Shown here in pieces: positions 20,923 to 45,749 of a DNA stretch of 64,000 nt. The notes under the pieces were generated by a model, which was not told where the DNA came from, did no database searches, and was given only the letters and a program-made list of their open reading frames with translations. How positions within the stretch are numbered: the first letter of the stretch is position 1; every line of letters starts with the position of its first letter. Source of the stretch: Octopus vulgaris (taxonomy: Eukaryota); NCBI GenBank assembly GCA_951406725.2, contig OX597838.1, positions 23,250,001 through 23,314,000 of the forward strand. Direction: 5' to 3'. The position numbers and the translations under genes are program-made.

Positions 20923-21383
20923 TACATAATTTTCACCCGTTCTTATTGTCCTGCAATTATTATATACATTTTTTGGTATTTTGTCCTCTACTCATCTCAT
21001 GTGTTTACGTATTTTTCACTCGTTGGTTATGTCCTGTACTTGATGTATTATATATATATATTACGGAGATGTACTCGCATAGCAAGTAATTTGATCTGAG
21101 ATCGTGTGCTGAAACGAAAACAATTGCAGCGTGGCAGGTGTTTATAAGCCATTTAAGAAACACACGAAAGCCGTTCGATTCACTTCAACATTTAAGTTTA
21201 ATTTGTCAAAATATTTTCGTCGCTAAAATCCGTGACCTGTTCACTGACAAAAATCCGTGCTGAACAGGTCGCAGATTTTAGCGACGAAAATATTTTGACA
21301 AATTAAACTTAAATGTTGAAGTGAATCGAACGGCTTTTGTGTGTTTCTTAAATGGCTTATAAACACCTTCCACGCTGCAATTG

Positions 21384-21424
<41 letters not shown>

Positions 21425-22175
21425 CATATACACACACACAGAGGGAGAGAGAGAGTTATTACCACGGGATTATCATTCCTAGTAAAATACTTTATAAGCT
21501 CTCTGTTAGTACAACAGTTAACAATATTGTTTAGATTAATAAAGAGGTCTGCATATTCTTGTGGCAGAGTCAAAGGTTATAATTCATTACCATTTTATAT
21601 TGTTAATCCATAGTTGTGTTCCAGTTATACTGTTTTTTATTTTTACACAGTGATATATAAGACAAGGCGTAAATACTGGTTATTACTTCTATGAGATGAC
21701 AATTTTTTATGCCTTGTCTTGTGTGTGTGTGTGTGTGTCATCATCATCATCATCGTTTAGCGTCCGCTTTCCATGCTAGCATGGGTTGGACGGTTCAACT
21801 GGGGTCTGAGAAGCCAGAAGGCTGCACCAGGCCCAGTCTGATCTGGCAATGTTTCTACGGCTGGATGCCCTTCCTAATGCCAACTACTCCGTGAGTGTAG
21901 TGGGTGCTTTTTACGTGCCACTGGCACAGGTGCCAGACGAGGCTGGCAAACGGCCACGATCGGATGGTGCTTTTTACGTGCCACCGGCACAGAGGCCAGG
22001 CGAGGCTGGTAACGGTCAAGATTAGATGGTGCTTTTTATGTGCCACCAGCATGGAGGCCAGTCGGGGCGGAGCTGGCAACGGCCACGTTCGGATGGTTCT
22101 CTTACATGCCACCGGCATTGGTATCACAGCTACAATTTCCATTGATGTTGATCAATTTCAATTTTGATTTTGATT

Positions 22176-22210
<35 letters not shown>

Positions 22211-25200
22211 GTGAATTGCAAAATTCCTGATGTGAATTAATGGACTAAACTGAACAGAAGACACATGAGATGGAAGAGTTGCTGAAGAGGTTACAGGTGT
22301 GTGACAAAAGATTTCTAGACAATGAACATAAGATAAAATAAGACCAATAATAAACAAGTGAAGAACAAATATACAGTGCCTGTATTTATTTGGCAAGTAA
22401 TCGAAAAAAAATTGCCATCCTAAAATATACATACATACATGTATATGTATGTGTGTATATATATATCCTATTTCTGGTTTTTAACTTGACACCTCTTTCA
22501 GTACATTCTAATACTCTTTTTCTTTTTTCTTTTATATTCAGAAATTCCTTTGTTCCATGTCCTTAATGCAAGAATCACTTTTGGAAACATCTTTGGAGTC
22601 GAGAGCCCAGTTGGAGGTGTCACATGTATTCAAGACGAGAAAATGTCCTGCTCCATCGATGATTCTGTATTTGACTTGCCGGCCAACTACAGCCGAGGTG
22701 GTGAGTCACCCTGTTTCACAACTGTTATATTCGGCATTGGAAATAAATGGTGGTGATGGTGGGGGCAGTTGGAGGTTATTGAAGAATGACAATGATGAAG
22801 ATCTGTTGTGTTAATTAGGTTAATGAGTGCAAGTGTGTGTGTGTGTGTGTGTGACCTTGCATTTGTTTATCTCTTCAACATTTCAAACAGGTCTTAGCCA
22901 GCGATAATATTTTACCTGTTATATGCTGCTTCCTGCCAAATCCAATCTCGCACATGTCTGGCAATGTCATTCCGAAAAATAAAGTCACAATGCTGAAATC
23001 TCAAAGCTATGAAATAAAGCTTGATTAATTCAAAACAATGTGAATGAAAAAAAACATTACATTTGACTGGGTAATGTGGATGCTAAAGATATCAGCAGGT
23101 TTTGTTTTTAATATCGATTTTAGATTACATTTAACCCTTTAATGTTTAATCCGGCCATATCCGGCCAAAATATTCTACCTATTTTATGTTCAAACTAGTC
23201 AGGTATGGTCATTCATAGCTATCTTATTGTGTCATTTTAAAAATAAACAATCACATTATTGGAATCTCAAAGCCATGAAATGATGCAAGATTAATTTTAC
23301 ATGGTGTGAATACATAAGCTTTACATTTTACAGAATAATCTGAATGCTAAAGAGTTAAATACTACATTTTATACAATAATTTATTCTATATATTAGTTAA
23401 ATTTTAAAATATTATCCAACCCATGCCAGCATGGAAAGCAGATGCTAAATGATGATTTGACCAGAAAACATATTTGAGATCTGATCACTAATTTGTGCAA
23501 GGTGATTAAACATGCAACACAGGTTTAATTCTTTGTTAATTTCATTATTTTTATGTTGTTTGCCAAAATTAATGTGTCGTGAAAAATTGTTTTGAAAATG
23601 TGTCACCAATGTGGAGAGTTTGGGAACGAAAGAGGATATTGAAGAAGAGTGTGTATGCGTTGGTGTATGACTTGCTGGTTGGAGTGTTCAGTTTGTGATT
23701 GTTGGGTTGGCAGTTCGATTCTCAGCAGTACTTCATCTCCTTGAGCAGGACACCTTGTTTCGCATTGCTGTAGTCCAATCAGCTGGCAAAAATGAGCAGT
23801 ACTTGTATTTCAAAGGGCCTGCTTGTCACATTCTGGGTTATGCTGAATCTCCTTCAGAACTACGTTAAGGGTATACATGTCTGTGGAGTACTCAGCCACT
23901 TGCATTGTTAACTTCAGGAGCAAGGTGTTTCATTGATTGGATCAACTGGAACACTCATCGCCATAACAACTGGAGTGCCTGTATAGTCAGTGTGTGTGTT
24001 TGTGTGTGTGTGTATGTGGTAGTTGCGGCATTGTGTGTGTGGGTCAGTATATATGTAGTAATGTGTGTGGCAGTATGTGTGTGTGTGTGTGTGCATGTCA
24101 ACTGGATCACCTGGATCTGCCAGGCTTTCTACTGCCGAGTCGGCCCCCACTGTCCACAGCATTTGCTCCATTCCCCTCATGCTTTCACCATTCTCCTCCA
24201 CATTATTCCAAACATCTTTCTAAAACCATCTTCCCACCTGATTGGAATTCTTCTGAGTGGTCCCTTCCATTCGTGTGGCTACCAATCAACAACTGCATGG
24301 GTCCACCAATAGTCTGTGCACCTTGCGACATGGTCGGCCCTTTGTAGCTTTGCGTGGTGGTATTCTGTGACAACGTCCTTCACTCCAGTTCTATCCCTGG
24401 TCTCCTCGTTCCGGATGTGATCTCTTAGCGAGATGCCTAGCCTTGACCTTTCTATGGCTGTGTGTGTGTGTGTGTGTGTATGTGTCGCAATGTGTGTGTG
24501 TGGTATTGTGACTAATGAAGGTGGCGAGCTGGCAGAAACGTTAGGACGCCGGGCGAAATGCATAGCCGTATTTCGTCTGCCGTTACGTTCTGAGTTCAAA
24601 TTCCGCCGAGGTCGACTTTGCCTTTCATCCTTTCGGGGTTAATAAATTAAGTACCAGTTACGCACTGGGGTCGATGTAATTGACTTAATCCGTTTGTCTG
24701 TCCTTGTTTGTCCTCTCTGTGTTTAGCCCCTTGTGGGTAATAAAGAAATAGGTATTGTGAATAATGTTAGCATCTTATAATGCTATTATGTTATTATAAT
24801 TGATAACGAGAATGAAATCTCTGTCTGTCTGTCTGTCTTTCTGTCCATGCAGGTGATGCCAACCATGAGCGCTTGACCCTGCGTTCCGATGATGAAGAAT
24901 TGCTCCAATATGCCATCCAACAGAGTATGATTGAAGTCGGCACGGAAAACGACCAGGTAAATTGCCCGATTGAATCTCCTGCTGATCCTTATGTAAGTGA
25001 ATAACTTCTGTAACTAACAATCCATCCATCAATCATCAATCAATCAATCAATCAGTCAGTCAGTCAGTAGAGCTTGTTGGGTTTGTCTTTTGTTCTTTAA
25101 TTTTGTTTGTTTTAATTTTTCTGTAACCCTCCAACCCCCCTTTTTTTTTTGTCTTTTTACTCCCAAGTTTCCCTTTTTGTATTTCTTTTTCCTTCATCAG

Positions 25201-25846
25201 TGAATATATTTTGGTTCTGTTCTTATTTCATTCTTCAAATTCTTTGACCATTTTCTTTTTTATTTTTTTCACCAATTCTCATCTCTGTCTTTTGACGTAT
25301 TCGCCGTGGGTGGCGGCTGCATGGTTTATTTTCCCCCCTCCCTCTCCTCTCTCCCATGCCTTCCCTGTTCCTTGAACCCTAAACCAGCTTCTCTGTTCCG
25401 CTCTGTGCAGTACCGTTCTGTATTCCCTGTTTATCAATACCAACTGTACCAACAGCTTTGTCCTTTTTTTTTTTTGTTTGTTTGTTTATATTATTTTGTT
25501 TGGTGTCTGTCTGTCTGTCCTTTCTATTCATGTTTGTTCAGGGCCCTTTTTTAAACTCTTATTATTATTATTATTATTATTATTATCATCACTAGGGCAA
25601 CGAGCTGGTAGAATTGTTAGCATGCCGGGCAAAATGCTTAGTGGTATTTTGTCTACCTTTATGCTCCGAGTTCAAATTCTGCCAAGGTTAACTTTTCCTT
25701 TCATCCTTTTGAGATCAATAAAATGAGTACTGGGGTCAGTGTAATTGACTTATTCCTCTCCCCTGAAATTGCTGGCCTTGTGCCAAAATTTGGAATTATC
25801 ATTATTGTTATTATTATTATTATTAAGTTAGTGAGCTGAACAAGGG

Positions 25847-25901
<55 letters not shown>

Positions 25902-28900
25902 GAAAAATACAAACTGGGACAAGAACGTAAAACATTTAGAAGACGATACAAAAAAACGGACGGGACATTCGAAGCCTTCAATCTTCAGTCAAGAACCGGA
26001 TCATCCTCGCAATTTCGGCTGATTATATATATATTGTTTATTTATTTATTGCCCACAGGAGGCTAAACATAGAGGGGACAAACAAGGACAAAGAGATTAA
26101 GTCAATTACATTGACCCCAGTGCGTAACTGGTACTTATTTAATCGACCCCGATGGGATGAAAGGCTAAGTCGACCTCAGTGGAATTTGAACTCAGAACAT
26201 AGCAACAGACGAAATACCGCTAAGCATTTCACCCAGCATGCTAACAATTCTGCCAGTTCGCCTTTATATTATTATTATTATTATTACTATTATTAAGGTG
26301 GTGAGATCACAGAATTGTTAACATGCCGGGCAAAACACTTACCATTTCATACGTCTTTGTTTTGGGTTCAAATTCTACTAAGGTCAACTTTGCCTTTCAT
26401 CCTTTCAGGGTCAATAAGTTAAGTACCAGTGAAATGCTGGAGTTGATGTAATCAACTGGTCCCCTCCCTTAAAATTTCAGACCTTGTGCCTTTAGTAAAA
26501 AAGATTATTGTTGTTATTATTATCATTATTGAGTGAGAGAGCAGTGCATGCCATCAAAGTGACACTGGAGTAAAATATACGAAGCCCAGTATACCCATCA
26601 TGATAACCTGTCTGATAAGGGTACACCAGGCACATGCATCACAACCATATGTGCGCAACATGGTGATCTCATATCAAGATAAACAGCACATGACCTTGCA
26701 GGGGAGGCCCAGTTAGAATTTTCTTCTGATCGAGTAGCCTATCCCACTCAAAAGGGCCTTGAATAAGAGTTGTTTAAGGTGGTTGAACGAAGCAGCCATG
26801 TTTCCAAAGGTGAATTATCCAAACTGCAAAGAATTCCTTTCAAACACATGGCTATGATGCTCCCCCACTACTTCTGCTCGTGATCAGAGATGCACATATC
26901 GTCAGCCAAAAGGGACATGCTCAACTGGTTACGGTCAAACAACTGACAAGCAAATCTGTGGTATTGGGCAGAATATTTACTGTAGCCCATCTTTTTATAC
27001 CAAGACAAAACAATGTACATGATAACACTTCCAATCAGTTAAGATCAGAAGCCACGAGAGTCACTGCCTGGTACTGCATCAGGGCATTTATTATATTTAT
27101 TATTATTATTATATTTATTATTATTATTATTTTTATTATTATTATTATTATTGTCATTTTTATTGTTGTTGTTGTTATCATCAGCTTAGTCTTAGCTTTT
27201 TAATCTTTCTTTTCTTGTCGTTCATGCCTCACACTAATATATGTGCAATTGTTATTCTATTCAGTGTATCATGCTGCACTTGTGCAACTATTACCACATT
27301 CAGATGCATCTGGCATCTTGCACCTGTAAAGCTTTTATTATATATGATTTGAGTTACCGTGTATAAGTGTAATGACTGAATGGACTGGGTCGGGGTGTAT
27401 ACTGTTCCCACACACCTGGGACAATGCTTGGTGTTATACCATGGGTTACTGCCCCACCCCCGTGTCTGGGATACCACTGATATTCATACCCAGTAGTGTT
27501 GCCCCTGAATGTGGGACATTGCTGCTTTTACACAACAGTATATTGCACCCTGTATCTGGAATGGTACTGCTATTCTACATGCATGCAACTTTGACCCACA
27601 TCTAATAAAATGTCCATCCAACCGATTAACATTGAGTCACCCTCAACCTCTCTCGCCCATAGACAAGCTGCCTTGTCACTCTGCCTTTTTAACCACCTCC
27701 GCCTCTGTTTCTCTCTTTCTCTCTCTCTCCACTACTACCCTGTTACAACTCTATATCTGTTTATTCCATCATGCTACACTCTCAGAGTGGTTGGCATTAG
27801 GAAGGGCATCCAGCTGTAGAAACTCTGCTAGATCAAGATTGGAGCCTGGTGCAGCCATCTGGTTCACCAGTCCTCAGTCAAATCGTGAGGGAACAACAAG
27901 CATGTGGTATTAGTTTGACGCTCTGGAAAAATGAAAGAGTCTTCAACATTTTGAGCCTATGCTCTTCAACAGAAAAGGATAAGAGAGAAAAAAATCAGAA
28001 AGAAACAAAAATAGTGTCGAGATTAACAGTTGCACATGTTGAAATGACCCTAAAGAAGAGACCAATGGGAAGGGAGGTAATTGTGTGTCTGTTTGTGTGT
28101 ACATGTCCCCCCCCCCTCACTGCTTGACAACTGGTATTGGTTTGTTTATGTCCCAGTAATTTAGCAGTTCAGCAAAAAAAAATAAACAGAAGGTGCAGGA
28201 GTGGCTGTGTGGTAAGTAGCTTGCTTACCAACCACATGGTTCCGGGTTCAGTCCCACTGTGTGGCACCTTGGGCAAGTGTCTTCTACTATAACCTCGGGC
28301 CGACCAAAGCCTTATGAGTAGATTTGGTAGATGGAAACTGAAAAAAGCCCGTCATATATATGTATATATATATGTATTTTTGTGTATATGCTTGACAACC
28401 GATGGTGGTGTGTTTGCATCCCCGTAACTTAGCGGTTCGGCAAATGAGACAGATAGAATAAGCACTAGGCTTACAAAGAATAAGTCCTCGGGTCGATTTG
28501 CTCGACTAAAGGCAGTGCTCCAGCATAGCCGCATTCAAATGACTGAAACAAAAGAATAAAAAAGAATTGGCACCAGGCTTGGGAAAATAATTTCTGGGGT
28601 CAATTTGTGAAACTAAAAACCCTTCAAGACAGTGCCCCAGCATGGCTGCAGTCCAGTGTCTGACACGAGTAAAAGAGAACATCAAGCCCTAATGTATTAC
28701 TGGTATATACATGTGTTTTACGTGCCAGAAAAAGATGAAAATCAGCATTGCTTGTGGCAAAAGCAGAACTCTGAGCCATGGGCCTGCCAGAGATAGACAA
28801 TATCAGTAACAACAACAACATGAATAATGATAGCGATACTTTGTCACATTGACTGTGTAACATGAATATGGAGAGAAGATATGGAATCGGGTGAATTGAC

Positions 28901-31218
28901 GTAGTGTATGACTGGTATTCATATGTACATGTGTGTCTGTATGCATATGTGTGTTTATTTCTCTTTTGTCTTTAGCTTGTTTCAGGCAGTTGAATGTGGC
29001 CATGCTGGGGCACCACCCTCAAGGGTTTTAGTCAAACAGATCGAGCCGAGTGCTTTTTTTGTTTTGAAGTCTGATAGTTAAGCTATTGGTCTCTTTTGGC
29101 AAACTGCTAAGTCGCAGGGACATAAACAAACCAACATCAGTTGTCAAGCAGCTAGAGGGGACAAGCAAGTATTGGATGTGATTATACACCGCTAGTCACA
29201 GTGCACTTGCTCGCATTGTTGTAGCCTTTAGATGATGCCAATCTGCTTGTTAGGTGGGCAGGGCTACAGTCCATGTAAACGAGATACCAGCCCATTGCAG
29301 GGTCACCCATTTACAGCTGACTTGACAGAAGCAACATGAAATGAGTGTCTTGCGATCGTGAGTGCGACACCCTAACCACTAGGCTACGTCTTTACACACA
29401 CACATTTATAAATAGGTTTCAACACAGTTTCCATCTACCAGATTCATTTGAGGTTTTGGGTTGTCCTGGAGCTATAGTAGAAAACACTTTCCCAAGGTGC
29501 CACACAGTAAGATTGAACCTGAAACCAGACAGTTGTAAAATGAGCTCCTTGACCATTCAGCCACATAAAAAGGGGGAAAAGGGTAAAGACCCCCTTCAGT
29601 TATGAATAACCATGGGATTGCGCCTAGAAAGTTACCCTCTGAGGCACAAGTCTGAGCAAGGTTGTTTGTGGAAGGCTAGCAGTTGCCCATGCATACCAGC
29701 TTCCACTCTCCACGCTGTTATATGTACAGAGAGTAAAAGCCCCTTCTATCATAAATGACCAAGGGATTGAACCTAGAAAGTTACCCTCCGAGGCACAAGT
29801 CCGGGCAAGGTTGTTTATGGAAGACCAGCAATCGCCCATGCATACCAGCCTCTTCTCTCCACACCACTGATGTTACCCAAGGGAAAGGCAAAGGCTGATA
29901 CAGCTTGGCACCATTGATGTCACAACTCACTTCTATAGATGAATGAACTGGAGCAATGTGAAATAAAGTGTCTTGCTCAAGAACACAACATGCAGCCCTG
30001 TCTTGGAATCGAACTCAATACCTCATGATTTTGAGCAAGACACTCTAACCACTGTACCATTATGCACCTATTATACATCTGCATAGTGATTCTCTCATCG
30101 CTTCTTGTCATTTAGTTCCTGGTCAGCCCCAGCTGAGCAGACCTATCTTATATCTATGATCAGTAGCTTTCCCAATATGACCGTCCCACCTATTTTATGT
30201 GCAAGGATTCGAAGAACCCAAATATTTTTCCCAAACTGCCCTTTTTTCTAAGGTATAGGAATGTGATTTGAAGGAGATTTCTAGCAATTTAACCCTTTCG
30301 TTACCATATCTCTTTTGAGATGCTCTGAATTTCTTTCAATGAATTTAAAATATAACAAAGAATTTAGTAAAATAATTTAGTCATCATTAAGCAAGTGTTA
30401 GGAACAGAAATTGTGACTAAGGTTTGGGGGAAGATTTTAATTCAAAACCTATGGAAACAAGACATTTGTACTACAGAACCAGAGCTGGTTTCAGCCGGGT
30501 TGGTATCAAAAGGGTTGAAAATATCATGGTGACGTTAACCCTTTTGTTACCATATTTCTATTGAGATGTCTGTGTTTCTTTAAATTAATTTTAAATACAA
30601 CAAAGAATTTAGTAAAAGAACTTAGGTATCATTAAGCTAGTGTTAGGAACATAAATTGTGACTAAGATTTGGTGGAAGATTTTAATTCAAAACCTATGGA
30701 AACAAGTCATTTGTACTCAGAGCCAGAACCAGTTTCAGCTGGGTTGGTATCAAAAGGGTTGAAAATATCAAAATATCATGGTGATGTTAACCCTTTTGTT
30801 ACCATATTTCTGTTGAGATGCTCTGTGTTTCTTTCCATTAATTTTAAATATAACAAAGAATTTAGTAAAATAACTTAGTTATCATTCAGCTAGTGTTAGG
30901 AGCATTAATTGTGATTAAGGTTTGGTGGAACATTTTAATTCAAAATCTATGGAAACAAGACATTTGTACTACAGAGCCTGAGGCGATTTCAGCTGGGCTG
31001 GTATCGAAAGGGTTAAACCAGCAACCACATAGAAGCATGGGGAAGCCTATGTTTTACTGAAGGGGTCTATTATGACCAAAATATATCCAGAGTTATATTC
31101 GAGTGTTATATATTTACATGCGTGTGTGTGTGTGTATTTATAGGTGTGTATATGTATATTGATGTATGTGTGTGCTGTGTTTGTTTTTTTTTTTACACTC
31201 ACTGCTTATTTCTTCTTT

Positions 31219-31275
<57 letters not shown>

Positions 31276-32611
31276 GACACACTCTCTTGCGCTTTCACAA
31301 GCTGCTACTTTCTCCCTATTCCTCCTCTTCCTTTTCCCCACCTTGCTTCTCTTTGTGCCTTAACTCCCCCACCCTTTGCAACACCCTTTCTCTCTGAGAA
31401 TGATACCCACTCACCCCGCCTTCTCTTCTAGCCACTTCCCCTCCCTCACTATGAGTTATTCCAGTCCCGGTTTATCTCCTCCCACCTTCACTCTCTCCCA
31501 GTACAACCCTTCTCCCCTACAACCCCCCTCTTTAATCAGTCTCCTCCACCACCACCACTTTGCTCATGCCCCCCCCCCCGCAACCTCTCTCCCTTCCTCC
31601 CACTGCAATCATTCTTTTCTTCCCTCTACTCTCTCTTACTACTCTCTCCTCCTCTCCCCAATATTACCACTCCCTCAGTGCCTCTATTCCCCTTCTCCAA
31701 CCACTACCATCAACACCACCACCACCACCACCACTCACTCTCTTTCTCTTCTCTCTCTCTCTCTCTTTCTATTCTATCTTCTCTCTCCCTCCCCCTTCTC
31801 TCCAGTTTTCTGTCTCTCTGTCTGTCTGTCTGTCTCTGTCTTTTTTACTCTTCCATCTTCTCTTCTGCAGGTCACATTCTGGGAAGCCCTCAACAAGAGT
31901 CGGCCTTCTACCAATAATTCAAGCATTGAAGAAGAACGCTGGCTACAGAGGTAAGTTGTATTTCGGGTTCTTCGACCACGCTCCTGACAACTTCGCTCAC
32001 GAGAAGCTTGCTTGTGACAGCATACATATGTACATATATAAATATGTTCATATCTAACTTGAAAACACTTGAGGCTCTGATGAAGCAGTAAGGTGTTACT
32101 CAGGTACTCAACAATGAGTTCACTGCATCTGATAGCAGAAACAGCAGTAAGCTAATGAAGTTCATAAGATAATCAGTTATTCCTTTGTCATCTCATTTTC
32201 TTATATGTAGTGTGTGTGTGTGTATATATATGGAAGCACTCCGTCGGTTACGACGACGAGGGTTCCGGTTGATCCGATCAACGGAACAGCCTGCTCGTGA
32301 AATTAACGTGTAAGTGCTGAGCACTCCACAGACACGTGTACCCTTAACGTAGTTCTCGGGGATATTCAGCGTGACACAGAGAGTGACAAGGCCGGCCCTT
32401 TGAAATACAGGTAGAACAGAAACAGGAAGTAAGAGTGAGAGAAAGTTGTGGTGAAAGAGTACAGCAGGGATCACCACCATCCCTGCCGGAGCCTCGTGGA
32501 GCTTTAGGTGTTTTCGCTCAATAAACACTCACAACGCCTGGTCTGGGAATCGAAACCGCGATCCTATGACCGCGAGTCTGCTGCCCTAACCACTGGGCCA
32601 TTTCGCCTCCA

Positions 32612-32657
<46 letters not shown>

Positions 32658-33094
32658 TCATCATCATCATCATTTAACGTCCGCTTTCCATGCTAGCATG
32701 GGTTGGACAGTTCAACTGGGGTCTGAGGAGCCCGAAGGCTGCACCAGGCCAGTCAGATCTGGCAGTGTTTCTACAGCTGGATGCCCTTCCTAACGCCAAC
32801 CACTCCGAGAGTGTAGTGGGTGATTTTATGTGCCACCGACACAGTGCCAGACGAGACTGGCAGACGGCCACGCTCGGATGGTGTTTTTATGTGCCACCGA
32901 CACAGGTGCCAGATGAGGCTGGCGAACGGCCACGATCGGATGGTGTTTGTTATGTGCCCACAGCACGGAGGCCAGTCGATGCGGTACTGGCTACGGCCAC
33001 GTTCGGATGGTTTTCTTGTATGCCACCGGCACTGGTACCACTAAGTGGTACCACAAAGATACAAATTCCATTGATATTCATCTATTTTGATTTG

Positions 33095-33147
<53 letters not shown>

Positions 33148-35439: not shown

Positions 35440-35534
35440 ACCAGCTCAGCATCACTATCATTGCTATTGCTATCATTATTATTACTATTATTATTATTAT
35501 TATTACTATTATTATTATTATTACTACTACTATA

Positions 35535-36513
35535 GGGTGTGGTTGGCAGAATTGTTTGAACATGGGGGTAAAATATTGCCTTGCAGCATTTCTTTTGGAT
35601 CTTTACATTCTGGGTTCATATCTCAACAAGGTCAACTTTGCCTTTCACCCCTCCAGGGGTTGATAAAATGAAGTACCAGTCAAGTACTGGGGGCCGATGT
35701 AATCAAGTAACCCCCTCCTCGCAAAATTGCTGGTCTTGTGCCCAAATTAGAAACAGTTGTTGTTGTTGTTAGTATTATTATTATTGTTATTATTATTATT
35801 ATTATTATAATACCTAAGGTGGTGAGCTGGCAGAATCGTTAGCATACTGGACGAAATGCTTAGCGGTATTTCACCCGCCACTACATTCTGAGTTCAAATT
35901 CCGCCGAGGTCGACTTTGCCTTTCATCCTTTCCGGGTCGATAAATTAAGTACCAGTGAAACACTGGGGTCGATGTAATCGAGAAGTCCCTTCCCCCAAAG
36001 TTGCTGCCCTTGTGGCAATATTTGAAACCATTATTATTATTATTATTATTATTATTTATTATTATTATTTATTATTACTGAGGCGGCGAACTGGCAGAAT
36101 TCTTAGCACGCTGGACGAAATGCTAAGCAGTATTTCACCTGTCTCTTTACATTCTGAGTTCAAATTCCATCGAGGTCGACTTTGCCCTTCATCCTTTCAG
36201 GGTTGATAAAATAAGTACCAGTTGAAGATTGGGGTCGAAGTAATCGACTAGCCCCACCCCCCATCTCAGGCCTTGTGCCTATAGTAGCAAGGATGATGAT
36301 TATTATTATTATTATTATTATCATTATTAAGGCGGTGAACTGGCAGAATCGTTAACGTACTGGGAAAAATGCTAAGCAGCATTTTGTCCATCTTTATACA
36401 TTCTATGTTCAAAATCAGGGTCGATAAAATAAGTACCAGTTGCATACTGGGGGTCGATGTAATTGACTTACACCCTGTCCCAAACTTGCTGGCCTTGTGC
36501 CAAAATTTAAAAC

Positions 36514-36550
<37 letters not shown>

Positions 36551-37284
36551 TATATATTTATTTATTTTCATTGTTGTTGTTCATATTTATTTTCATTGTT
36601 ATCATTATTTTTATTTTTTTTTGATTATTATTAACAAGGATAGTGGTGGATTGGCAGAATCTGTTGAGCATCAGACAAAATGCCCTGTGCTATTTATTTG
36701 ACCTCTTTCTAAGTTTCTGAATTAGAATTTCACTGGGTGGGGTGGGGCTGGGGGAAGTAAAGGTGGGGGGGGTCAAATTTGTCTATCATCTTTTCAGGTG
36801 TGTGGGGGGGGGGCGGTGGTTCTCGGGGGAGGGGGGATGGAAATAAAATACACAGTTAAGCGGTCATTAGTACTGGCAGAGGAGAGGGACTGATTTCAAT
36901 GACTGCTCTCCTACAAAAAGCAGAAAAATTTTAAAAAAACAACCAAACAAAAAATTGTGGCTCTGTATGTTAGAGAAAAAAAAAAATTGATTATTATTAC
37001 CATTGATATTTTTTAATATTTATTATCATATTATTATTATTATTATTATTTGTCATTTTTATGGTTATTATTTTTATTACTATTATAATATAAAAAGAAA
37101 TGAAACAGCCAAAAAATAAACTTGTGAAAAAAAATGCAAAAACAAATTTAAAAAAAAAAAAGCAACAACATTCTTGATTTCAATAAAACTATAAACAATT
37201 TTAAGTTTCAAGCTGAAGTGGTGTCCCTTACAAATGTCCATAAGTCCCTTTGTATTTATTGTTATTATTATTATTATTATTATG

Positions 37285-37332
<48 letters not shown>

Positions 37333-37545
37333 GAGGTGGTAAGGTGGCAGAATTTTTAGCATGCTTGACAAAATGTTTGGCAACATTTCATCTGTTTTTG
37401 TTCCGAGTTCAAATTTTGCAGAGGTTCACTTGCTTTTCATCCTTTTAGGGGTCAATAAAATAAGTACCAGTTGATCACTGGGGTGTCAAGGTAATTGACT
37501 CATCCCCTCCCCACAGATTTCAGGCCTTGTGCCAATATTTGAAAC

Positions 37546-37590
<45 letters not shown>

Positions 37591-40340
37591 AGGTGGCAAG
37601 CTGGCAGAATCGTTAGCATGCTGGACGAAATGCTTAGCAGTATTTCAACCGTTGCTACATTCTGAGTTCAAATTCTGCAAAGGTCGACTTCACCTTTTAT
37701 CCTTTCAGGGGCCAATAAAATAAGTAGCAGTATTATTGGATTGGTGTAATTGTTACAGTGTCTTCCAAGATGCTTTGTGACATTTGTGTCAGCTCTTTAC
37801 GTTCCAAGTTCAAATCCTGCCACGGTAATCTTAGCCTTTCATCCTTCCAAGGTTGATAAAGTAACAGCCAAGATTTAATCAACTGTAGCCCTCCACACAC
37901 AGATACACAAATTTCTAGCATCATCATCATCATCATTATTATTATTAGTATTAAGGTGATAAGCTGGCAGAATTGTTAACACACTGGACAAAACCCTTAC
38001 TAGTATTTCGTCTGCCACTATGTTCTGAGTTCAGATTCCGCTGAGGTTGACTTTGCCTTTCATTCTCTCAGGGTCGATAAAATAAAGTACCCGTGAAACA
38101 CTGGGGTCAATGTAGTTGACTTAATCCCTTCCCCCTTGTGACAAAAGTTTGAAATCATCATTATTATTATTATTCGGCGGCGAGCTGACTGAATTGTTAG
38201 CACGCCAGGTAAAATGCTCAGTGGTGTTTCACCTGTATTTGCATTCTGATTCAAATTCCAGCGGGGTTGGCTTTACCTTTGATCCCTTCAGGGTCAATAA
38301 AATAACAGTTGAGTACTGTTCCTTAAAATTTTGGGCCTTGTGCCTATAATATGAATGATTATTATTATTACAGTAGAAATCATCATCGTCATCATCATCA
38401 TTATTATTATTATATAATGTGGTGAGCTGGCAGAATCATTAGCATGCTGGATTAAATGCTTAGCTGTATTTCACCCATCACTACGTTCTGAGTTCAAATT
38501 CCACTGAGGTCAACTTTGCTTTTCATCCTTTCAGGGTCGATAAATTAAGTACCAGTGAAACGCTGGGGGTCGAGGTAATCGACTAGTCCCCCTCCCTACA
38601 AATATGAGGCCTTGTGCCTCCAGTAGAAAGGATTATTATTATTATTGGTGGTAAGGTGGTGAGCTGGCTGAATCATTAACATGCCAGACAAAATGCTTAG
38701 TGGCATTTCGTATGTCTTTATGTTCTGAGTTCAAATTCCACCGAGGTTGACTTTGCCTTTCATCCTTTTGGGGGTCAATGAAATCAACTATCCCCCTCCA
38801 CCAAAATTTCAGGCCATATGCTTATAGTAAAAAGGGCCATTATTATGGGTGTTGAGAGTAGAAGTATCATTAGAGCATCAGACAAAACAGTTTGCAGGTT
38901 TTGTTCCAGCTCTCTGTTCTGAGTTCAAATCTTACCCAGGTCAACCTTATGTGTTATCCCTCCAGGGTCAATAAAATAAAGTACTGTCCAAGTACGGAGG
39001 TCGATGCTGTAGACTGACTCCTTTACTGCTTCCTCACCCCACTTGTGCGTGAATTAAAAGCAATTATTTAGGGTGGGTGGGTATATGGAATCATTAGTGT
39101 ATCAGGCAAGATGGCTCGTGGCATTTGTGTGTTCAAATCCTGCTGAGGTTGACTGCCTTTTTAAGGACAATGCAATAAAGTACCAGCCCAGTACCTGGCT
39201 AAATGGCATCAACTAACCCCTTTCCCATCAAAATTGTCAACCTTGTATCTTAATTAGAAATCATTTCAACATTAATGGCATTGTAGGTGTGGCTGTGTGG
39301 TAAGAAGCTTGCTTCCCAACCACATGGTTCTGGGTTCATTCCCACTGCATGGCACCTTGGGCAAGTGTCTTCTACAGTAGCCTTGGGCGGACCAAAGCCT
39401 TGTAAGTGGATTTGGTAGATGGAAACTTAAAGAAGCCCATCGTATATATATATAAATATATATTTGTGTGTCTGTGTTTGTCTCCCCCCACTATCACTTC
39501 ACAACCGATGTTGGTGTATTTACTTCCCCATAACTTAGTTTGTTTGGCAAAAGACCCCGATAGAATAAGTACTAGGCTTACATAGTCCTGGGGTCGATTT
39601 TTTTTTTTTTTTTTTTACTAAAGGTAGTGCTCCAACATGGCCACAGTCAAATGACTGCAACAAAAGAATATTTTGACACTGGCCCAGTAGTTTCTGATGA
39701 GGGGTGAGTTAATTACATTGACCCCCAGCATCTAAATGGTAAGGATGAAAGACATAGTCAACCTCAGCTGAACTTGAACCCAGAACATAAAAACAGAATA
39801 AATGGCGTTAAGGATTTTGTTCAACACACTAATGATTCTGCCCGTTTGTCACTTTAATGATAATTATAAAAATCCCTTCTGCTAAAAAAAGTACAAGGCT
39901 TGATAATTAAGGGAGGAGGTGGGGATAGTCAATTACACCAACCCCAATGCTCAACTTGTACTTATTTTATTTCCACCCCCACAAAATGATAAAATAGAAA
40001 GTCAACTTGGTAGGATTTGAACTCTGAATGTAAAACTGGAAGAAATAATGCTGAGCATTTTGTCCAGTGCATTAACAGTTGTGCCAGCTCAATTTAATAA
40101 TAATAATAATAATAATTGTTGTTGTTGAGTTGGCAGAACTGTTAGCATGCTGGGTTAAATGCTTAGCAGCATTTCATCTGTCTTTACGTTCTGAGTTCAA
40201 ATCCTGTCAAGGTTGACTTTGCCTTTCATTCTTCCAGCGTTGATAAAATAAGCACCAGTTGAACACTGGGGGGCGTCAATGTAATCAACATACCCACTCC
40301 CACCTGAATTTGCTGGCGTTGTGCCAAAATTTGAAACCAT
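35535..40340. repeat. Dense cluster of SINE family A copies separated by (TTA)n
   Basis: About 15 plus-strand copies (e.g. 35818, 36082, 36330, 37334, 37592, 37954, 38418, 38654, 40127) and two minus-strand copies at about 39680-40090. Confidence 0.85.
37182..37187 (+). promoter_or_regulatory. Candidate ANKRD13 polyadenylation signal
   Basis: AATAAA in a non-SINE, A-rich stretch, followed by a T/GT-rich segment; other AATAAA hexamers lie nearby. Confidence 0.3.
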
Positions 40341-41003
40341 TATTATTATTTATTATTGTTGTTATTATTATTATTATTATTATCCCTGATTCTCACATAT
40401 TTGACAATCGTTTTTTTTTTTTTTTTTTTTCTGTCACACCTGTCAGTGGTCCCTTCCTCCTCCCATGTTGATATACCCCCACCCTGTGCTCTTTTCAAGT
40501 TAAAAAATGCAAAATTGAAACCCCTGACTTCTTTTGTTTCAGGAATCCCTTTTCCCTACCAACTCCACCCCCCCCCTTTTTTTAAAAAATTTATGCTTTG
40601 AATATATTTATAATTATTTCTCCCTCCCACATCACCTTCCATGTAAGCCCTGTACCCCCCCTCTTTTTTTTGTTAGTTTGTTGCTTTCCCCCCTGTCTCT
40701 TCTTGTGTTTCCCACTCTGTACTGTGTGTGTGTGTGTGTGTGAGCAAGGTAAGGTCATCTCCAGTATAAGTGATCCAAGGTAGTCATAGGTGTGTCATAT
40801 ACAGTGTATATGACACACATGTATGGCTCTTCTCCAAGAAGATTCTCATTCTCAGTACCTCATTTGATTTTTTTTTTTTTTTTTTTTTGGGTTTTAGATT
40901 GAAAGAGATAAAGGCTTCAATTAAAAACGTATTCAAAACTAGAATTCATAATTGGTTGAAGTGATCCAAAAATTTCATAAATGAATACACACACACATGC
41001 ATC

Positions 41004-41036
<33 letters not shown>

Positions 41037-41692
41037 TTTGAAATTCAGTTTCCTTGATCTGATGTATCCAAGTAGACTGTTCCGAGTTTTGTTTTTTCAA
41101 GTTCATCTTAAGTGTGTCTTTCTATCTCCCCTTTGGTTTACCAAGTCATTGGAAGCCACACATACACATTTGTATATATGTTATGTATAGGAAACAGTGC
41201 TTCAGTATGCTGTTAGCCACGATGAAAAAGCTAACTCACAAACATACAAACTATAACCACTGATGTATCATACTTTTTGTCTGGAGATAGAGATAATATC
41301 TTCAGATGAATACCCTGGTAAATTTGCCTTTTTGCAATGTATTTGCATTAAGTATGATACACAGATGACTCTTTTAATCTAAAACTGCTTCTGTTGCATA
41401 TAAGGGATTTATATATATGTATGTATGTGTGTAAATTTTGATCTCCATTTGTTTTTTATACCTATTTCACACCTGGAATCATCCTTGAGTCAGATCTACA
41501 ATCTAAATTGGATTTGGTACTTAGATATCTACATACCTATGGTATGTTACAAACACATAATACCTCATGGTTGTTATAGCTCTCTGTGAATCCTATGTTA
41601 TGGTACCTAGCCAGTTCTGGCATCCTATCTGCTGATGCACCTAGATTCTAATGAATTCTATAACTATATATATATATATATATGTATGTGTA

Positions 41693-41732
<40 letters not shown>

Positions 41733-41898
41733 CATACATACGTGCAGTTGTGGCTGTGTGGTAAGAAGCTTGCTTCCTAACCACATGGTTCTGGGTTCAG
41801 TCCCACTGCTTGGAACCTCGGGCAAGTGTCTTCTACTATAGCTTCAAGCTGCCCAAAGTCTTGTGAGTGGATTTGGTAGACGGACTCTGAAAGAAGCC

Positions 41899-41937
<39 letters not shown>

Positions 41938-42188
41938 TGTTTGTGTGTCTTTGTGTCTGTTTATCCCCTCACCATCATTTGACAACCGATATTGGTGTGT
42001 TTTGCATCTCCGTAATTTAGCGGTTCAGCAAAAGAGACCAATACAATAAGTAGTCGGCTTACAAAGAATAAGTCCTAGGGTCGATTTTTTTTTTTTTTTT
42101 TTTTTTTTTACTATGACCCTTTAAGGCGGTGCTCCAACATAGCCACAGTCAAATGACAAACAAGTAAAAGAATATGTGTGTGTGTGTG

Positions 42189-42220
<32 letters not shown>

Positions 42221-42221
42221 C

Positions 42222-42478
42222 ACAGTATATGTACGTATATATATATATACAGTATATGTACGTATATATATATATATATATATATACAGTATATGTACGT
42301 ATATATATATATATATATATATACAGTATATGTACGTATATATATATATATATATACAGTATATGTACGTATATATATATATATATATACAGTATATGTA
42401 CGTATATATATATATACAGTATATGTACGTATATATATATATACAGTATATGTACGTATATATATATATATATATATG
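42222..42478. repeat. Compound satellite cagtatatgtacg(ta)n
   Basis: Nine units with variable TA length. Confidence 0.9.
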
Positions 42479-43699
42479 TGTGTACATATACTGTATACAT
42501 ATTGTATAGAAAACACGTTCTCCCACAGTTACTGAGAGGTCCTCAGCTCACACTTGTAAACATGTTTAGCATCCCCCCCTCCAGCACAACTACCCCTCCC
42601 TCCACTACCACCACCACCACCATATCAACAAACCTCCTGCCAGGACCACCTCTTCTCTTTCTATGCATTTTCCTTTTCTACCAGACATTTCAACTAAAAC
42701 TCTACGACAATACTCAATAACCATTGTATTGTTACCAATGCACTTCTGCTTGCAAGAAATTTGTTGTGAAGTGTGAGTCGTTGCTGTTGTTGTTGTTGTT
42801 GCTTTTAGCCACAATCAAGTGGGGGCGGGGGTGGATAAGATATATGAATTTCTGAAGAGAAAAGCGTAGTTTCATATTTTGTGTGTGTGTGTGTATGTAT
42901 TAAGCTTTTCAAATGTTGTAAAATTCTGACAAATCATATAGGTATATAAGTAGTATGCATGTATGTATACGCATGTTGAAATATACATCCATGTACATGT
43001 TTGTGAATGAACATAGGAACATATACACATGTACAAATATATATACTCTTTTACTTGTTTCAGTCATATATATATATATATATATATTTATATTTTGTGA
43101 AATTTGATTTAGTATTTCTAAATTGAATTTTTCCCTGTAAATTTGGAATAATATTCTCTCAAATTATTATATATATATATATATATATATACCCACACAT
43201 GTATGAACATATATGTACATATTAAATTAAAAATTTTTTTTCTTTTTATAAAAGCCAAAACAATGCAAGTTATAAGAAAAGATATATAAGTCAATGGTTT
43301 GTACTTTTACCTTGTATTTCAATATTTCGGTTTTAGGAGCCCTTTGTCAGGAAATCTTCAGTTAAAATGGTGTTGTTGAACACACATGCTACAGAACAGA
43401 CAGCCGTTCAAGAATTTGGACCTGGAGATTTCCATTTCCAGCGACAGAACAGACAAGCCAGCTCACAATGCCATTTTTCCAAAGATTTCCCGAAGGAGAG
43501 AGAGAGAGAGAGCTCCTAACCCTGAAATAGTGAAATACAAAGTAAAAATTACTAATCATCGTTACATGACTAATCATCAACTTGCATTGTTTGGTTTTAA
43601 AAAACAATCATTAAAAACACTAACACACACATATATAACCATTTATATACTACATGTATAGATGTGTATGTGTGGGTGTACATGTATGTATATATATAA

Positions 43700-44199
43700 T
43701 AAAATATTAGGGAATAAATCCAAACTTACAGGGAAAAATCAGATTTAAGATTGAATCCAATTTTATAGTAAAATATTATATTAAATTAGAGATAAAACCA
43801 CTATTAGGCAAATCATACAATGAAAAACTTAAGCCAATACATAAGATTAATTAATTTATATTATTTAAATATATATCAAAATTATTAAAAAAGATAATTA
43901 ATATAACACTACGATCGTTTCATGGCTGTTCAATTCTTAAAATTTTCGAGTTACAGTCATTCTTCAGGTGGTTTAAATATTTAACTTGGCGAGGTTTAAA
44001 CCACCTGAAGAATGACTGTAACTCGAAAATTTTAAGAATTGAACAGCCATGAAACGATTGTTGTGTTATATTAATTATCTTTTTTAATAATTTTGATATA
44101 TATTTAAATAATATAAATTAATTAATCTTATGTATTGGCTTAAGTTTTTCATTGTATGATTTGCCTAATAGTGGTTTTATCTCTAATTTAATATAATAT
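43700..44199. mobile_element. Fold-back insertion, probable Penelope-like remnant with inverted pLTR
   Basis: About 205-bp arms at 43773-43977 and 43995-44199, 17-nt spacer, a hammerhead motif in each arm, (TA)n flanks. Confidence 0.75.
43907..43970 (-). ncRNA. Minimal type I hammerhead ribozyme (Penelope-like element type)
   Basis: cac CTGAAGA atgactgt-[loop]-acagccat GAAA c-GATC-g TA gtg: both conserved boxes, stem II 7/8 bp, palindromic loop III, GUA cleavage triplet, stem I cac/gtg. Confidence 0.72.
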
Positions 44200-45404
44200 A
44201 TATATATATATATATATTTTGTATGTTTCTGCCCTAAGGCTGTGGCCATGCTGGGATATATATGTATATGCTATGTTTGTGTGTATCTGTGTATGAGTGA
44301 ATGTATGTATGCGTGCATGATATTCATCTTCACTGCCTGGTATCCATCCACTTCTGTTTGTGACCTCCAACCCCCCACAGCTGAAGTTACTGTTTGCACT
44401 AATGTGGAAGTAAGGTATCCTATCTATGAGTGTTACATGCAGCCTGTTGAAAGAGGTGGGGACATTGTAAGACATGTTAATAATAATAACGATGACGATG
44501 ATGATGATGATAATAACAATAATAAACAAAATGTGTGAAAGTCCCTAAAACCTGACAAAAAACAAGCTGATGTCATGCCGAATTGTAAAATTGTTTAAAA
44601 AAAAAAGACAAAAAAAGTAAAATAACAGAAAAAAAAAACAACTTTTGCACCTTTTGTGAGGTTTGAATTGTTTTTATTGATGTTTTGATGTTTTTTGCAA
44701 TGTTGTTGTGGATTGGTAGAATGATGGGCAAAATATCTTGGGATATTTCATGTCTGTATTCTTTTATTATTTTACCTGTTTTAGTCATTTTGACTGCGGC
44801 CATGCTGGAGCACCACTTTTAGTTGAACAATTCAACCCCTAGGACTTATTCTTTGTAAGCAATGCACTACATGTCTCAGTCCTCTATCATCTCCATCTGA
44901 AGGCCCAGCAATTTGAGATCGGCCTTCAGTACCCCATCCTAGGTCTTCCTGGGTCTCCCCCTTCACCTGCACTTTACATTAATACATTAACATCATTATA
45001 TAATAAGGATTGCTATTCAGACTTGTGATTCTCAGAACAACAAGACACAAATACTCCAAGACATTGTGTCCAACCCTCTAAGCAATTCTGCCAATGGACT
45101 GCTCTGTAGATGGACTGAATAATAATTATTCTATTGTTTGTTTTTCTCTGTTGGCATGGGTTGTATAGGTCTACATAAGTGTTGCAGTCTCATATCACTA
45201 GGAGCCTTTGTATGTGGTTGTTCAACCTGCTAGAAATAGCAGTCAAGTCACCTCCTCCCTCTTGCATACCACCATCTTAAAAAACTGATTTGACACTGTG
45301 ATCCTGGATTATTTGCTGTTTAGGAAAAGAGAGGCTGTTCAAAGTTGTGCTCAGTCACGGTTGGAAAGCAAGAAGAAATGCTAAAATGAGATCATATATA
45401 TATA

Positions 45405-45705
45405 TATAATCAAAATTAGCAACAAGAATGACTCCGGTAATTTGGTACGATCGTTTCATTCTACATCATTTTATTAAATGTTGTGAGTATTACAACAGAT
45501 TTAAAATGCCAAGTACTGTTGTAATACTTACAACATTTAATAAAATGATGTAGTACGAAACGATCGTACCAAATTACCGGAGTCATTCTTGTTGCTTATT
45601 TTGATTATAATCACCCCACGGATTTTTATGGATAACACCATACAAAATTCTGGTGCATTTAAATTAAGTACCATATTTATTTGAATCTAAATTTTTGCTG
45701 AACTT
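45405..45705. mobile_element. Fold-back insertion, probable Penelope-like remnant
   Basis: About 94-bp arms at 45405-45498 and 45516-45609, 17-nt spacer, GAAA-CGATCG-TA hammerhead 3' half, one-sided extension, (TA)n flanks. Confidence 0.68.
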
Positions 45706-45749
45706 ATATATATATATATTTATTTACACAGCATATTTCCAAAAGTCTC

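What the first reader, a model, noticed from the sequence alone, without database searches (positions are those of the whole stretch)
21119..45609. Three unrelated hammerhead-associated fold-back insertions share an exact 17-nt spacer
Seen: long near-perfect inverted repeats at 21119-21385 (125-bp arms, spacer ctgacaaaaatccgtgc), 43773-44199 (about 205-bp arms, spacer tatttaacttggcgagg) and 45405-45609 (about 94-bp arms, spacer atttaaaatgccaagta). Apart from the hammerhead motif, arm sequences and lengths differ, yet each spacer is 17 nt. Each sits in a (TA)n tract, has one arm with an unpaired outer extension, and inverts in or next to a hammerhead motif. Established: Penelope-like elements (PLEs) carry minimal hammerheads and often leave inverted pLTR copies. 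Inference: a fixed spacer across families points to a mechanistic ruler, such as the RT footprint during fold-back or template switching. I do not know of this being described.
Basis: partly seen in the sequence, partly recalled or inferred. Interest (0 to 1): 0.85.

Follow-up and report, generated by a model that had tools for sequence, protein, structure and literature searches.

The report
Two-ended Penelope insertions; spacer is chance
Three mirror-image insertions of Penelope-like jumping genes each have a 17-base gap in the middle, but across the genome that gap takes any length, so the match is a coincidence; what the copies do share is one tailed and one tail-less end, which likely means both cut strands of the target start a DNA copy.

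Summary
The three inverted repeats and their 17-nt centres are exactly as reported, but 17 is not a ruler. Of 174 other independent head-to-head junctions, 4 are 17 nt (2.3%); the range is 0-197 and the modes are 0-2 and 10. Three equal centres in one window are expected a few times in this genome by chance. Each centre is the extra length of the longer arm, joined to the shorter arm at a 2-5 nt microhomology. The structures are head-to-head, 5'-truncated insertions of Penelope-like elements in (TA)n, an architecture already published. Family C is linked to a Hydra-type GIY-YIG ORF; parents of A and B were not found. The real regularities lie elsewhere: 169 of 175 pairs carry the 'tail' on exactly one arm although solo copies are half tail-less, the tail is as often on the short arm as on the long one, target duplications are 11-13 bp, and 7 of 47 family-A pairs have arms from different sub-lineages.

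The parts
21047..21060 (.). Family A: left (TA)n target
21061..21118 (-). Family A tail (3' extension, about 58 nt), on the left arm only
21119..21243 (-). Family A left arm (long, tailed), element sense on minus (sense inferred from the hammerhead-like motif and the tail)
21202..21251 (-). Family A hammerhead-like motif with swapped 3-8 core pair (G3/C8) and one extra G before stem II; complete only in left arm plus centre; activity untested
21244..21260 (-). Family A 17-nt centre = continuation of the left arm; 2-nt microhomology at 21261-21262
21261..21385 (+). Family A right arm (short, tail-less)
21385..21430 (.). Family A right (TA)n tract
43698..43772 (-). Family B tail (about 75 nt), left arm only
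43773..43977 (-). Family B left arm (long, tailed)
43907..43970 (-). Family B minimal type I hammerhead motif (core at 43967-43961, GAAA at 43921-43918, palindromic stem III); mirrored at about 44002-44065 on plus with one change
43978..43994 (-). Family B 17-nt centre = continuation of the left arm; 5-nt microhomology at 43995-43999; same junction at L036
43995..44199 (+). Family B right arm (short, tail-less), followed by (TA)n to about 44217
45405..45498 (-). Family C left arm (long, tail-less), preceded by (TA)n at 45395-45408; holds the 3' half of the hammerhead
45499..45515 (-). Family C 17-nt centre = continuation of the left arm; 2-nt microhomology at 45516-45517
45516..45609 (+). Family C right arm (short, tailed)
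45610..45704 (+). Family C tail (about 95 nt) on the SHORT arm, followed by (TA)n at 45705-45719

Best explanation
These are three independent head-to-head, 5'-truncated insertions of Penelope-like retrotransposon ends into (TA)n, each likely made by two reverse-transcription events, one from each nicked target strand, and the shared 17-nt centre is a coincidence. Inferred steps: the GIY-YIG endonuclease nicks both strands about 11-13 nt apart; one nick starts a cDNA at the outer RT start site (tailed arm), the other at the inner site (tail-less arm); the two cDNAs stop independently, often near a fixed 5' end in families A and B; their 3' ends pair at a few complementary bases and are filled in. 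The centre is the difference between the two stop points, so it has no fixed length, and it lies near the hammerhead because the hammerhead lies near where most cDNAs stop. Whether the two cDNAs come from one RNA or two is open; most pairs look like one source, a minority like two.
For: Shown: centre lengths 0-197, 4 of 174 at 17. Centre = family sequence of one arm, with 2, 5 and 2 nt overlap in the window copies. 685 head-to-head hammerhead-motif pairs in the genome (reversed-pattern control 0) against 0 tail-to-tail pairs at 20-80 nt. One tail per pair in 48 of 50 family-A pairs and 121 of 125 hammerhead pairs (one more by eye), while solos are 16 tailed and 17 tail-less. Tail on the short arm 16 vs long 14 in A and 31 vs 28 in the hammerhead set. 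Target duplications of 11-13 bp in 8 family-A pairs with non-TA flanks. Arms with different stem-II-loop lineages in 7 of 47 A pairs. Two insertions seen by eye whose second piece is only an inverted tail fragment (L057; L180 flank). Family C arm lies downstream of a GIY-YIG C-terminus in 12 of 12 loci. From papers: a purified PLE protein cuts and extends both target strands, starts at two internal RNA sites that bound the tail, and is predicted to be a dimer (PMC11167929).
Against: All of this is read from finished insertions; no intermediate was seen. Most pairs have arms of the same lineage, and arms share private variants in 7 of 47 A pairs and 19 of 72 B-like pairs, as copying of one arm from the other would also give. 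Discordant arms could come from later gene conversion; in A the discordance is mostly at one loop. In vitro the start site did not depend on the strand, so the one-tail rule is not explained by that work. Near-perfect centres (0-3 nt) are somewhat commoner in the youngest pairs (8 of 23 vs 13 of 81, Fisher p=0.07), a hint that some asymmetry arises after insertion. Microhomology was not tested against a null, and many junctions have inserted or unresolved bases. No coding parent was found for A or B, so their PLE status rests on architecture. Long/short calls are automatic and a few are wrong (e.g. L231, L246).
Confidence: 0.6

Rival explanations
1. Fold-back then erosion: one cDNA started at the outer site folds back near the RNA 5' end, copies itself as far as a fixed nick at the tail boundary, and the near-perfect palindrome later loses centre bases from either arm by microhomology-mediated deletion.
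For: Most arm pairs are same-lineage and share private variants; modes at 0-2 nt; slightly more perfect centres among young pairs (p=0.07); PMC8557442 suggests the tail comes from endonuclease resolution.
Against: Half of the solos and 5 of 11 endonuclease-reaching C copies start at the inner site, so fold-back should give many pairs with no tail; only 4 of 175 are. No trend of centre length with arm divergence (rho 0.01, n=104). Arms of different lineage are unexplained without conversion.
Confidence: 0.22
2. Self-priming on an antisense transcript, as proposed for rotifer Penelope elements: the RNA 3' end folds back and primes its own copy.
For: Proposed in PMC3846280 for head-to-head junctions with palindromes; compatible with same-lineage arms and with a tail on either arm.
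Against: Junctions are scattered over 200 nt, not tied to a built-in palindrome; it predicts identical arms at birth; it does not explain the one-tail rule or the 11-13 bp duplication around both outer ends; the in vitro enzyme uses sense RNA.
Confidence: 0.08
3. One reading: an RT footprint fixes a 17-nt loop across families.
For: Three of three long pairs in this window are 17 nt; the B junction recurs once elsewhere; 3 other A pairs are 17 nt.
Against: 0 of 121, 0 of 47, 4 of 174 pooled, no higher than neighbouring lengths (12-22 nt: 7,8,4,0,2,4,3,3,1,3,4). The recurring B junction sits on a 5-nt microhomology.
Confidence: 0.02
4. Assembly or sequencing artefact (chimeric fold-back reads).
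For: No read set strictly bridged any of the three junctions.
Against: Arms differ by 2-4 bases, ends are fixed family sites with target duplications, hundreds of loci share the design, and short-read contigs of other runs hold other head-to-head joints of family A and match across the C junction.
Confidence: 0.03
5. Non-autonomous DNA transposons (MITE or foldback type) whose arms are terminal inverted repeats.
For: Long inverted arms in TA-rich targets.
Against: Unequal outer ends, a different inner junction at almost every locus, many single-armed copies, and for C a link to a GIY-YIG/RT ORF.
Confidence: 0.02

Closest known systems
Inverted, 5'-truncated PLE insertions with pseudo-LTRs and an optional tail (Craig et al. 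2021, PMC8557442; Arkhipova et al. 2013, PMC3846280)
   Same: Inverted truncated copy joined at the 5' end, tail often at one end only, (TA)n targets, target duplications of about 8-10 bp in rotifers, head-to-head polarity (passages).
   Different: Those papers give no junction statistics; tails here are 58-95 nt rather than 30-40; they favour endonuclease resolution or antisense self-priming, not two priming events.
Hydra clade of C-terminal-endonuclease PLEs (PMC8557442)
   Same: Family C parent: C-terminal GIY-YIG, CxCX5C linker, no CCHH, CxxC and CxH around the conserved E and N, canonical hammerhead, (TA)n target.
   Different: No intact ORF recovered, no tree built; long asparagine-rich insert between RT and endonuclease as in rotifer Penelope; A and B are not assigned.
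Minimal type I hammerheads of metazoan PLEs (Cervera and de la Pena 2014, PMC4209133)
   Same: Short stem I, palindromic stem III, extra base before stem II; that paper already notes pairs of motifs 100-700 bp apart on opposite strands.
   Different: Family A has G3/C8; the passages I read report only the U3-A8 swap in nature.
Twin priming and the proposed 'dual priming' of LINE-1 (Meyer et al. 2010, PMC2837659)
   Same: Second nick primes a second, inverted cDNA; duplication flanks both; internal junction by microhomology or end joining (passages).
   Different: In L1 twin priming the two pieces are non-overlapping parts of one RNA and inversion is a minority outcome; here both arms copy the same stretch from two fixed start sites, and about half or more of A and B copies are inverted (19 of 29, 16 of 27).
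Poseidon element of the green anole in vitro (Frangieh et al. 2024, PMC11167929)
   Same: Two RT start sites bounding the tail, both strands cut and extended, AT-rich target, uncleaved hammerhead in the template (arms here run through the cut site).
   Different: That paper does not discuss inverted insertions and saw no strand bias in start site.

Membership tests
   0 of 121, 0 of 47, 4 of 174
Penelope-like element, family C | GIY-YIG endonuclease in cis, at the ORF C-terminus | tested here: met
   PF01541 23.5 bits over cut-off 22.6; C arm downstream in 12 of 12 loci
Penelope-like element, family C | Telomerase-like RT in cis | tested here: inconclusive
   A catalytic-motif-like and thumb-like stretch by eye in one broken copy (L329; motif recognition recalled); no Pfam RT match, no match to the 781-aa PLE; full upstream region not obtained
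Hydra clade, family C | CxCX5C linker, no CCHH, CxxC and CxH near conserved E and N | tested here: met
   against the description
Hydra clade, family C | RWK and DKT motifs; placement in RT tree | not tested
   N-terminal RT part not held
Penelope-like element, families A and B | RT plus GIY-YIG ORF in cis | tested here: inconclusive
   No linked ORF in the loci held; copies stop at a fixed 5' end, so they may be non-autonomous or 5'-end products
Penelope-like element, all three | Optional 3' tail, inverted 5'-truncated partner, (TA)n target, target duplication | tested here: met
   (clear duplications shown for A only; B and C flanks too TA-rich)
Minimal type I hammerhead, B and C | Canonical core with stems I-III | tested here: met
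   by eye; no Rfam match; folding energy not better than shuffles for B
Minimal type I hammerhead, A | Canonical C3-G8 core and covarying stems | tested here: inconclusive
   Core is G3/C8 in 97 of 107 copies; stems 94% paired vs 32-58% when slid, but no covariation above shuffles
Hammerhead ribozyme, all three | Self-cleavage | not testable with these tools
   needs an in vitro assay, as dimer
MITE / foldback DNA transposon | Identical fixed termini on both sides and a constant internal structure | tested here: not met

The most novel reading that the evidence does not exclude
Head-to-head insertion is a main route of Penelope-like transposition: a dimer nicks both target strands and starts two cDNAs, using each of the two RT start sites exactly once, sometimes on two different RNAs. 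This would be genomic evidence for dual priming, so far only postulated for LINE-1, and would explain the tail and the inverted pLTR in one step.
Probability: 0.5. Interest if true: 0.6.

Novelty: new member of a known kind. Interest (0 to 1): 0.33.

Why it matters
The headline, a 17-nt ruler, is not real, and the architecture is published. The value is in the by-product. How PLEs form their inverted ends and tails is called an open question in PMC8557442 and PMC11167929. This genome holds hundreds to thousands of young pairs, and their one-tail rule, arm-length independence and mixed-lineage arms make a sharp prediction that the existing in vitro system can test with two marked RNAs. It is also a caution for spacer histograms: one family-A pair carried inside a Helitron-like element would give a false sharp peak at 21 nt.

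Tried and rejected
Rfam at E<=1: no hammerhead family matched, only microsatellite-driven miRNA matches. Pfam GIY-YIG search found an intact 781-aa RT+GIY-YIG family, but none of its loci links to A, B or C. First attempt to measure arm extents against other pairs ran through shared junctions and was discarded (redone in 43); one search timed out; one search stopped part way through the C-like group, so lineage discordance is complete for B-like pairs only. ESM Atlas and the protein search gave nothing for the family C ORF end (weak evidence). No RNA holder listed for certain. Read laying did not strictly bridge any junction. A splice-junction reading of the fixed 5' stop was tried: acceptor-like sequence upstream in 3 B-like hits against 107 of the common form, and in 2 A hits, but the proposed first exon of A occurs at one locus only and no donor site was found, so it is unproven. 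Longer stretches around the family C ORF and a systematic count of tail-only second pieces were not obtained; full-length parents and the frequency of such pieces stay open. Literature: searches found no paper on a fixed spacer or on twin priming in PLEs; subscription papers and supplements were not seen.
Full report
Observation. A centre-out scan of the window finds the three long short-spacer inverted repeats at the reported coordinates, each with a 17-nt centre. All lie in (TA)n and each has one unpaired outer extension. The window is G000:C25:23250001-23314000 in a 2.8-Gb genome; that it is a cephalopod is my recalled guess and was not tested.

What the pieces are. Searches with each arm gave 977, 1322 and 553 first-look candidates, of which 40 each were scored and 30 fetched. 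In all three families the outer ends are two fixed sites, one with a tail and one without, while the inner junction differs from locus to locus. The 17-nt centre is in each case ordinary family sequence continuing one arm, and the other arm joins at a 2-nt (A), 5-nt (B) or 2-nt (C) overlap. B and C carry a minimal type I hammerhead motif; A carries a look-alike with G3/C8 in 97 of 107 copies, 94% paired but without covariation support. Walking family C upstream reached, 0.46-1.36 kb before the hammerhead, the end of an ORF with a GIY-YIG domain over the Pfam cut-off; the C arm lies downstream in 12 of 12 such loci. Its cysteine motifs match the published description of Hydra PLEs, and one broken copy shows RT-like motifs and an asparagine-rich insert. 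No parent was found for A or B.

The 17-nt test. A pattern for two facing hammerhead halves counts 85, 251, 250 and 99 loci at gaps of 0-59, 60-120, 121-180 and 181-240 nt, with 0 for the reversed control; the back-to-back pattern has 0 at 20-80 nt. I sampled 15, 50, 42 and 15 of these in genome order, dropped one with N, and found 0 of 121 centres at 17 nt, median 16, range 0-197. Among family searches, 19 of 29 A, 16 of 27 B and 10 of 30 C loci are inverted, with only the window copies and L036 at 17. A family-blind scan of 1,076,608 bases (two fixed 100-kb blocks plus flanks) gave 47 inverted repeats with arms of 50 bp or more, 0 at 17 (not all are PLEs). With a further family-A sample the pooled, de-duplicated set is 174 junctions: 4 at 17 nt (2.3%, 95% interval 0.6-5.8%), modes 2 and 10 (12 each), 1 (11), 0 (10). 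Dropped before that count: the window's own A and C, four non-pairs, six pairs whose outer sides did not align, one with N, and all but one copy of the Helitron-borne pair. The family-A pattern favoured short centres, which helps the ruler idea. Three equal centres have a chance of about 0.0004-0.001; at 2.8 such repeats per 64 kb, about 2-5 windows in this genome should have exactly three, all equal. The three window copies also differ in age (1-4% arm divergence).

Mechanism. Exactly one arm has the tail in 48 of 50 A pairs (1 both, 1 neither) and 121 of 125 hammerhead pairs (3 neither, 1 both that by eye is a flank match; 5 dropped). Solos are 16 tailed and 17 tail-less (one duplicated locus included), and endonuclease-reaching C copies 6 and 5, so both sites start first strands. 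Fold-back would then give many tail-less pairs and independent choice a quarter of each homogeneous class; neither is seen. The tail is on the short arm in 16 vs 14 A pairs and 31 vs 28 hammerhead pairs; a second method gives a family bias, B-like 26 long to 15 short and C-like 5 long to 23 short. A cDNA cannot copy from itself a tail it lacks. Target duplications of 11-13 bp are clear in 8 A pairs of the 15 listed; the rest are TA runs or unclear. Arms differ at lineage-marking sites in 15 of 47 A pairs, at two or more in 9, and in the stem II loop type in 7; discordance is 8.4% at polymorphic against 3.4% at invariant non-CpG sites. Against this, arms share private variants in 7 of 47 A and 19 of 72 B-like pairs, and only 4 of 72 B-like pairs show lineage discordance. 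Centre length does not track arm divergence (rho 0.01, n=104), though perfect centres are 8 of 23 in the youngest class and 13 of 81 in the rest. I therefore favour two priming events (0.6) over fold-back with later erosion (0.22). The steps of nicking, priming and joining are inferred; the in vitro support comes from another PLE clade.

Literature seen. PMC11167929: main text parts 1-2 and passages. PMC4209133: parts 1-2. PMC8557442, PMC3846280, PMC3088659, PMC2837659 and bioRxiv 10.1101/2024.12.14.628481: passages only. bioRxiv 10.64898/2026.07.22.740005: part 1. No supplements. The inverted truncated partner, the one-sided tail and opposite-strand hammerhead pairs are all in print. Searches found no fixed spacer and no twin-priming model for PLEs.

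Artefact check. Short-read contigs match across the C junction with 26 nt on the short side, do not bridge A, and show six other head-to-head joints of family A in three runs. Together with arm mismatches and target duplications this makes an artefact unlikely but is not a strict proof for these three loci.

Verdict. Observation confirmed, ruler refuted, family identification largely right. Ordinary architecture; the one-tail rule and mixed arms are a testable lead. Interest 0.33.

Noticed in passing
L261:3869-5705 (also L232, L242-L244, L262-L265): One family-A head-to-head pair with a fixed 21-nt centre sits inside a 1.85-2.1 kb element with a 3' hairpin and CTAG end, by recall a non-autonomous Helitron. 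It makes up 24 of the first 50 of 1984 pattern hits, so perhaps 900 copies, and would give a false ruler peak at 21 nt.
   Followed up: partly
window 21202-21251 (minus): Hammerhead-like motif with the 3-8 core pair swapped to G3/C8 in 97 of 107 family-A copies; the loop of stem II varies between lineages. The passages read report only U3-A8 in nature; the lab double mutant is partly active.
   Followed up: partly
L020:1481, L016, L052:2036, L202:1563 and 1670: A few A and B-like copies continue upstream of the usual 5' stop with branch-point and acceptor-like sequence, as for the intron next to the Drosophila virilis Penelope hammerhead; donor not found.
   Followed up: partly
L289:3626-5968 and many loci: A young PLE family with an intact 781-aa RT plus C-terminal GIY-YIG frame at many loci, with a long repeat-containing 3' region; not linked to A, B or C.
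   Followed up: partly
L329, L327, L332, L335, L337 upstream of 1500: Long asparagine-rich (AAT)n-coded insert between RT and endonuclease in the family C parent, as described for rotifer Penelope.
   Followed up: no
L057; L180 about 3700-3900: Insertions whose second piece is only an inverted tail fragment, so there is hardly any inverted repeat; the L180 case has an 11-bp target duplication by eye.
   Followed up: partly
L027 second pair; L230 flank: 2 of 50 family-A junctions fall at stem I / the predicted hammerhead cut site; stem I microhomology explains them as well.
   Followed up: partly
C-like vs B-like pairs: The tail-less arm is the longer one in about two thirds or more of C-like pairs and the tailed arm in about two thirds of B-like pairs; borderline significance, unexplained.
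   Followed up: partly
   Followed up: no
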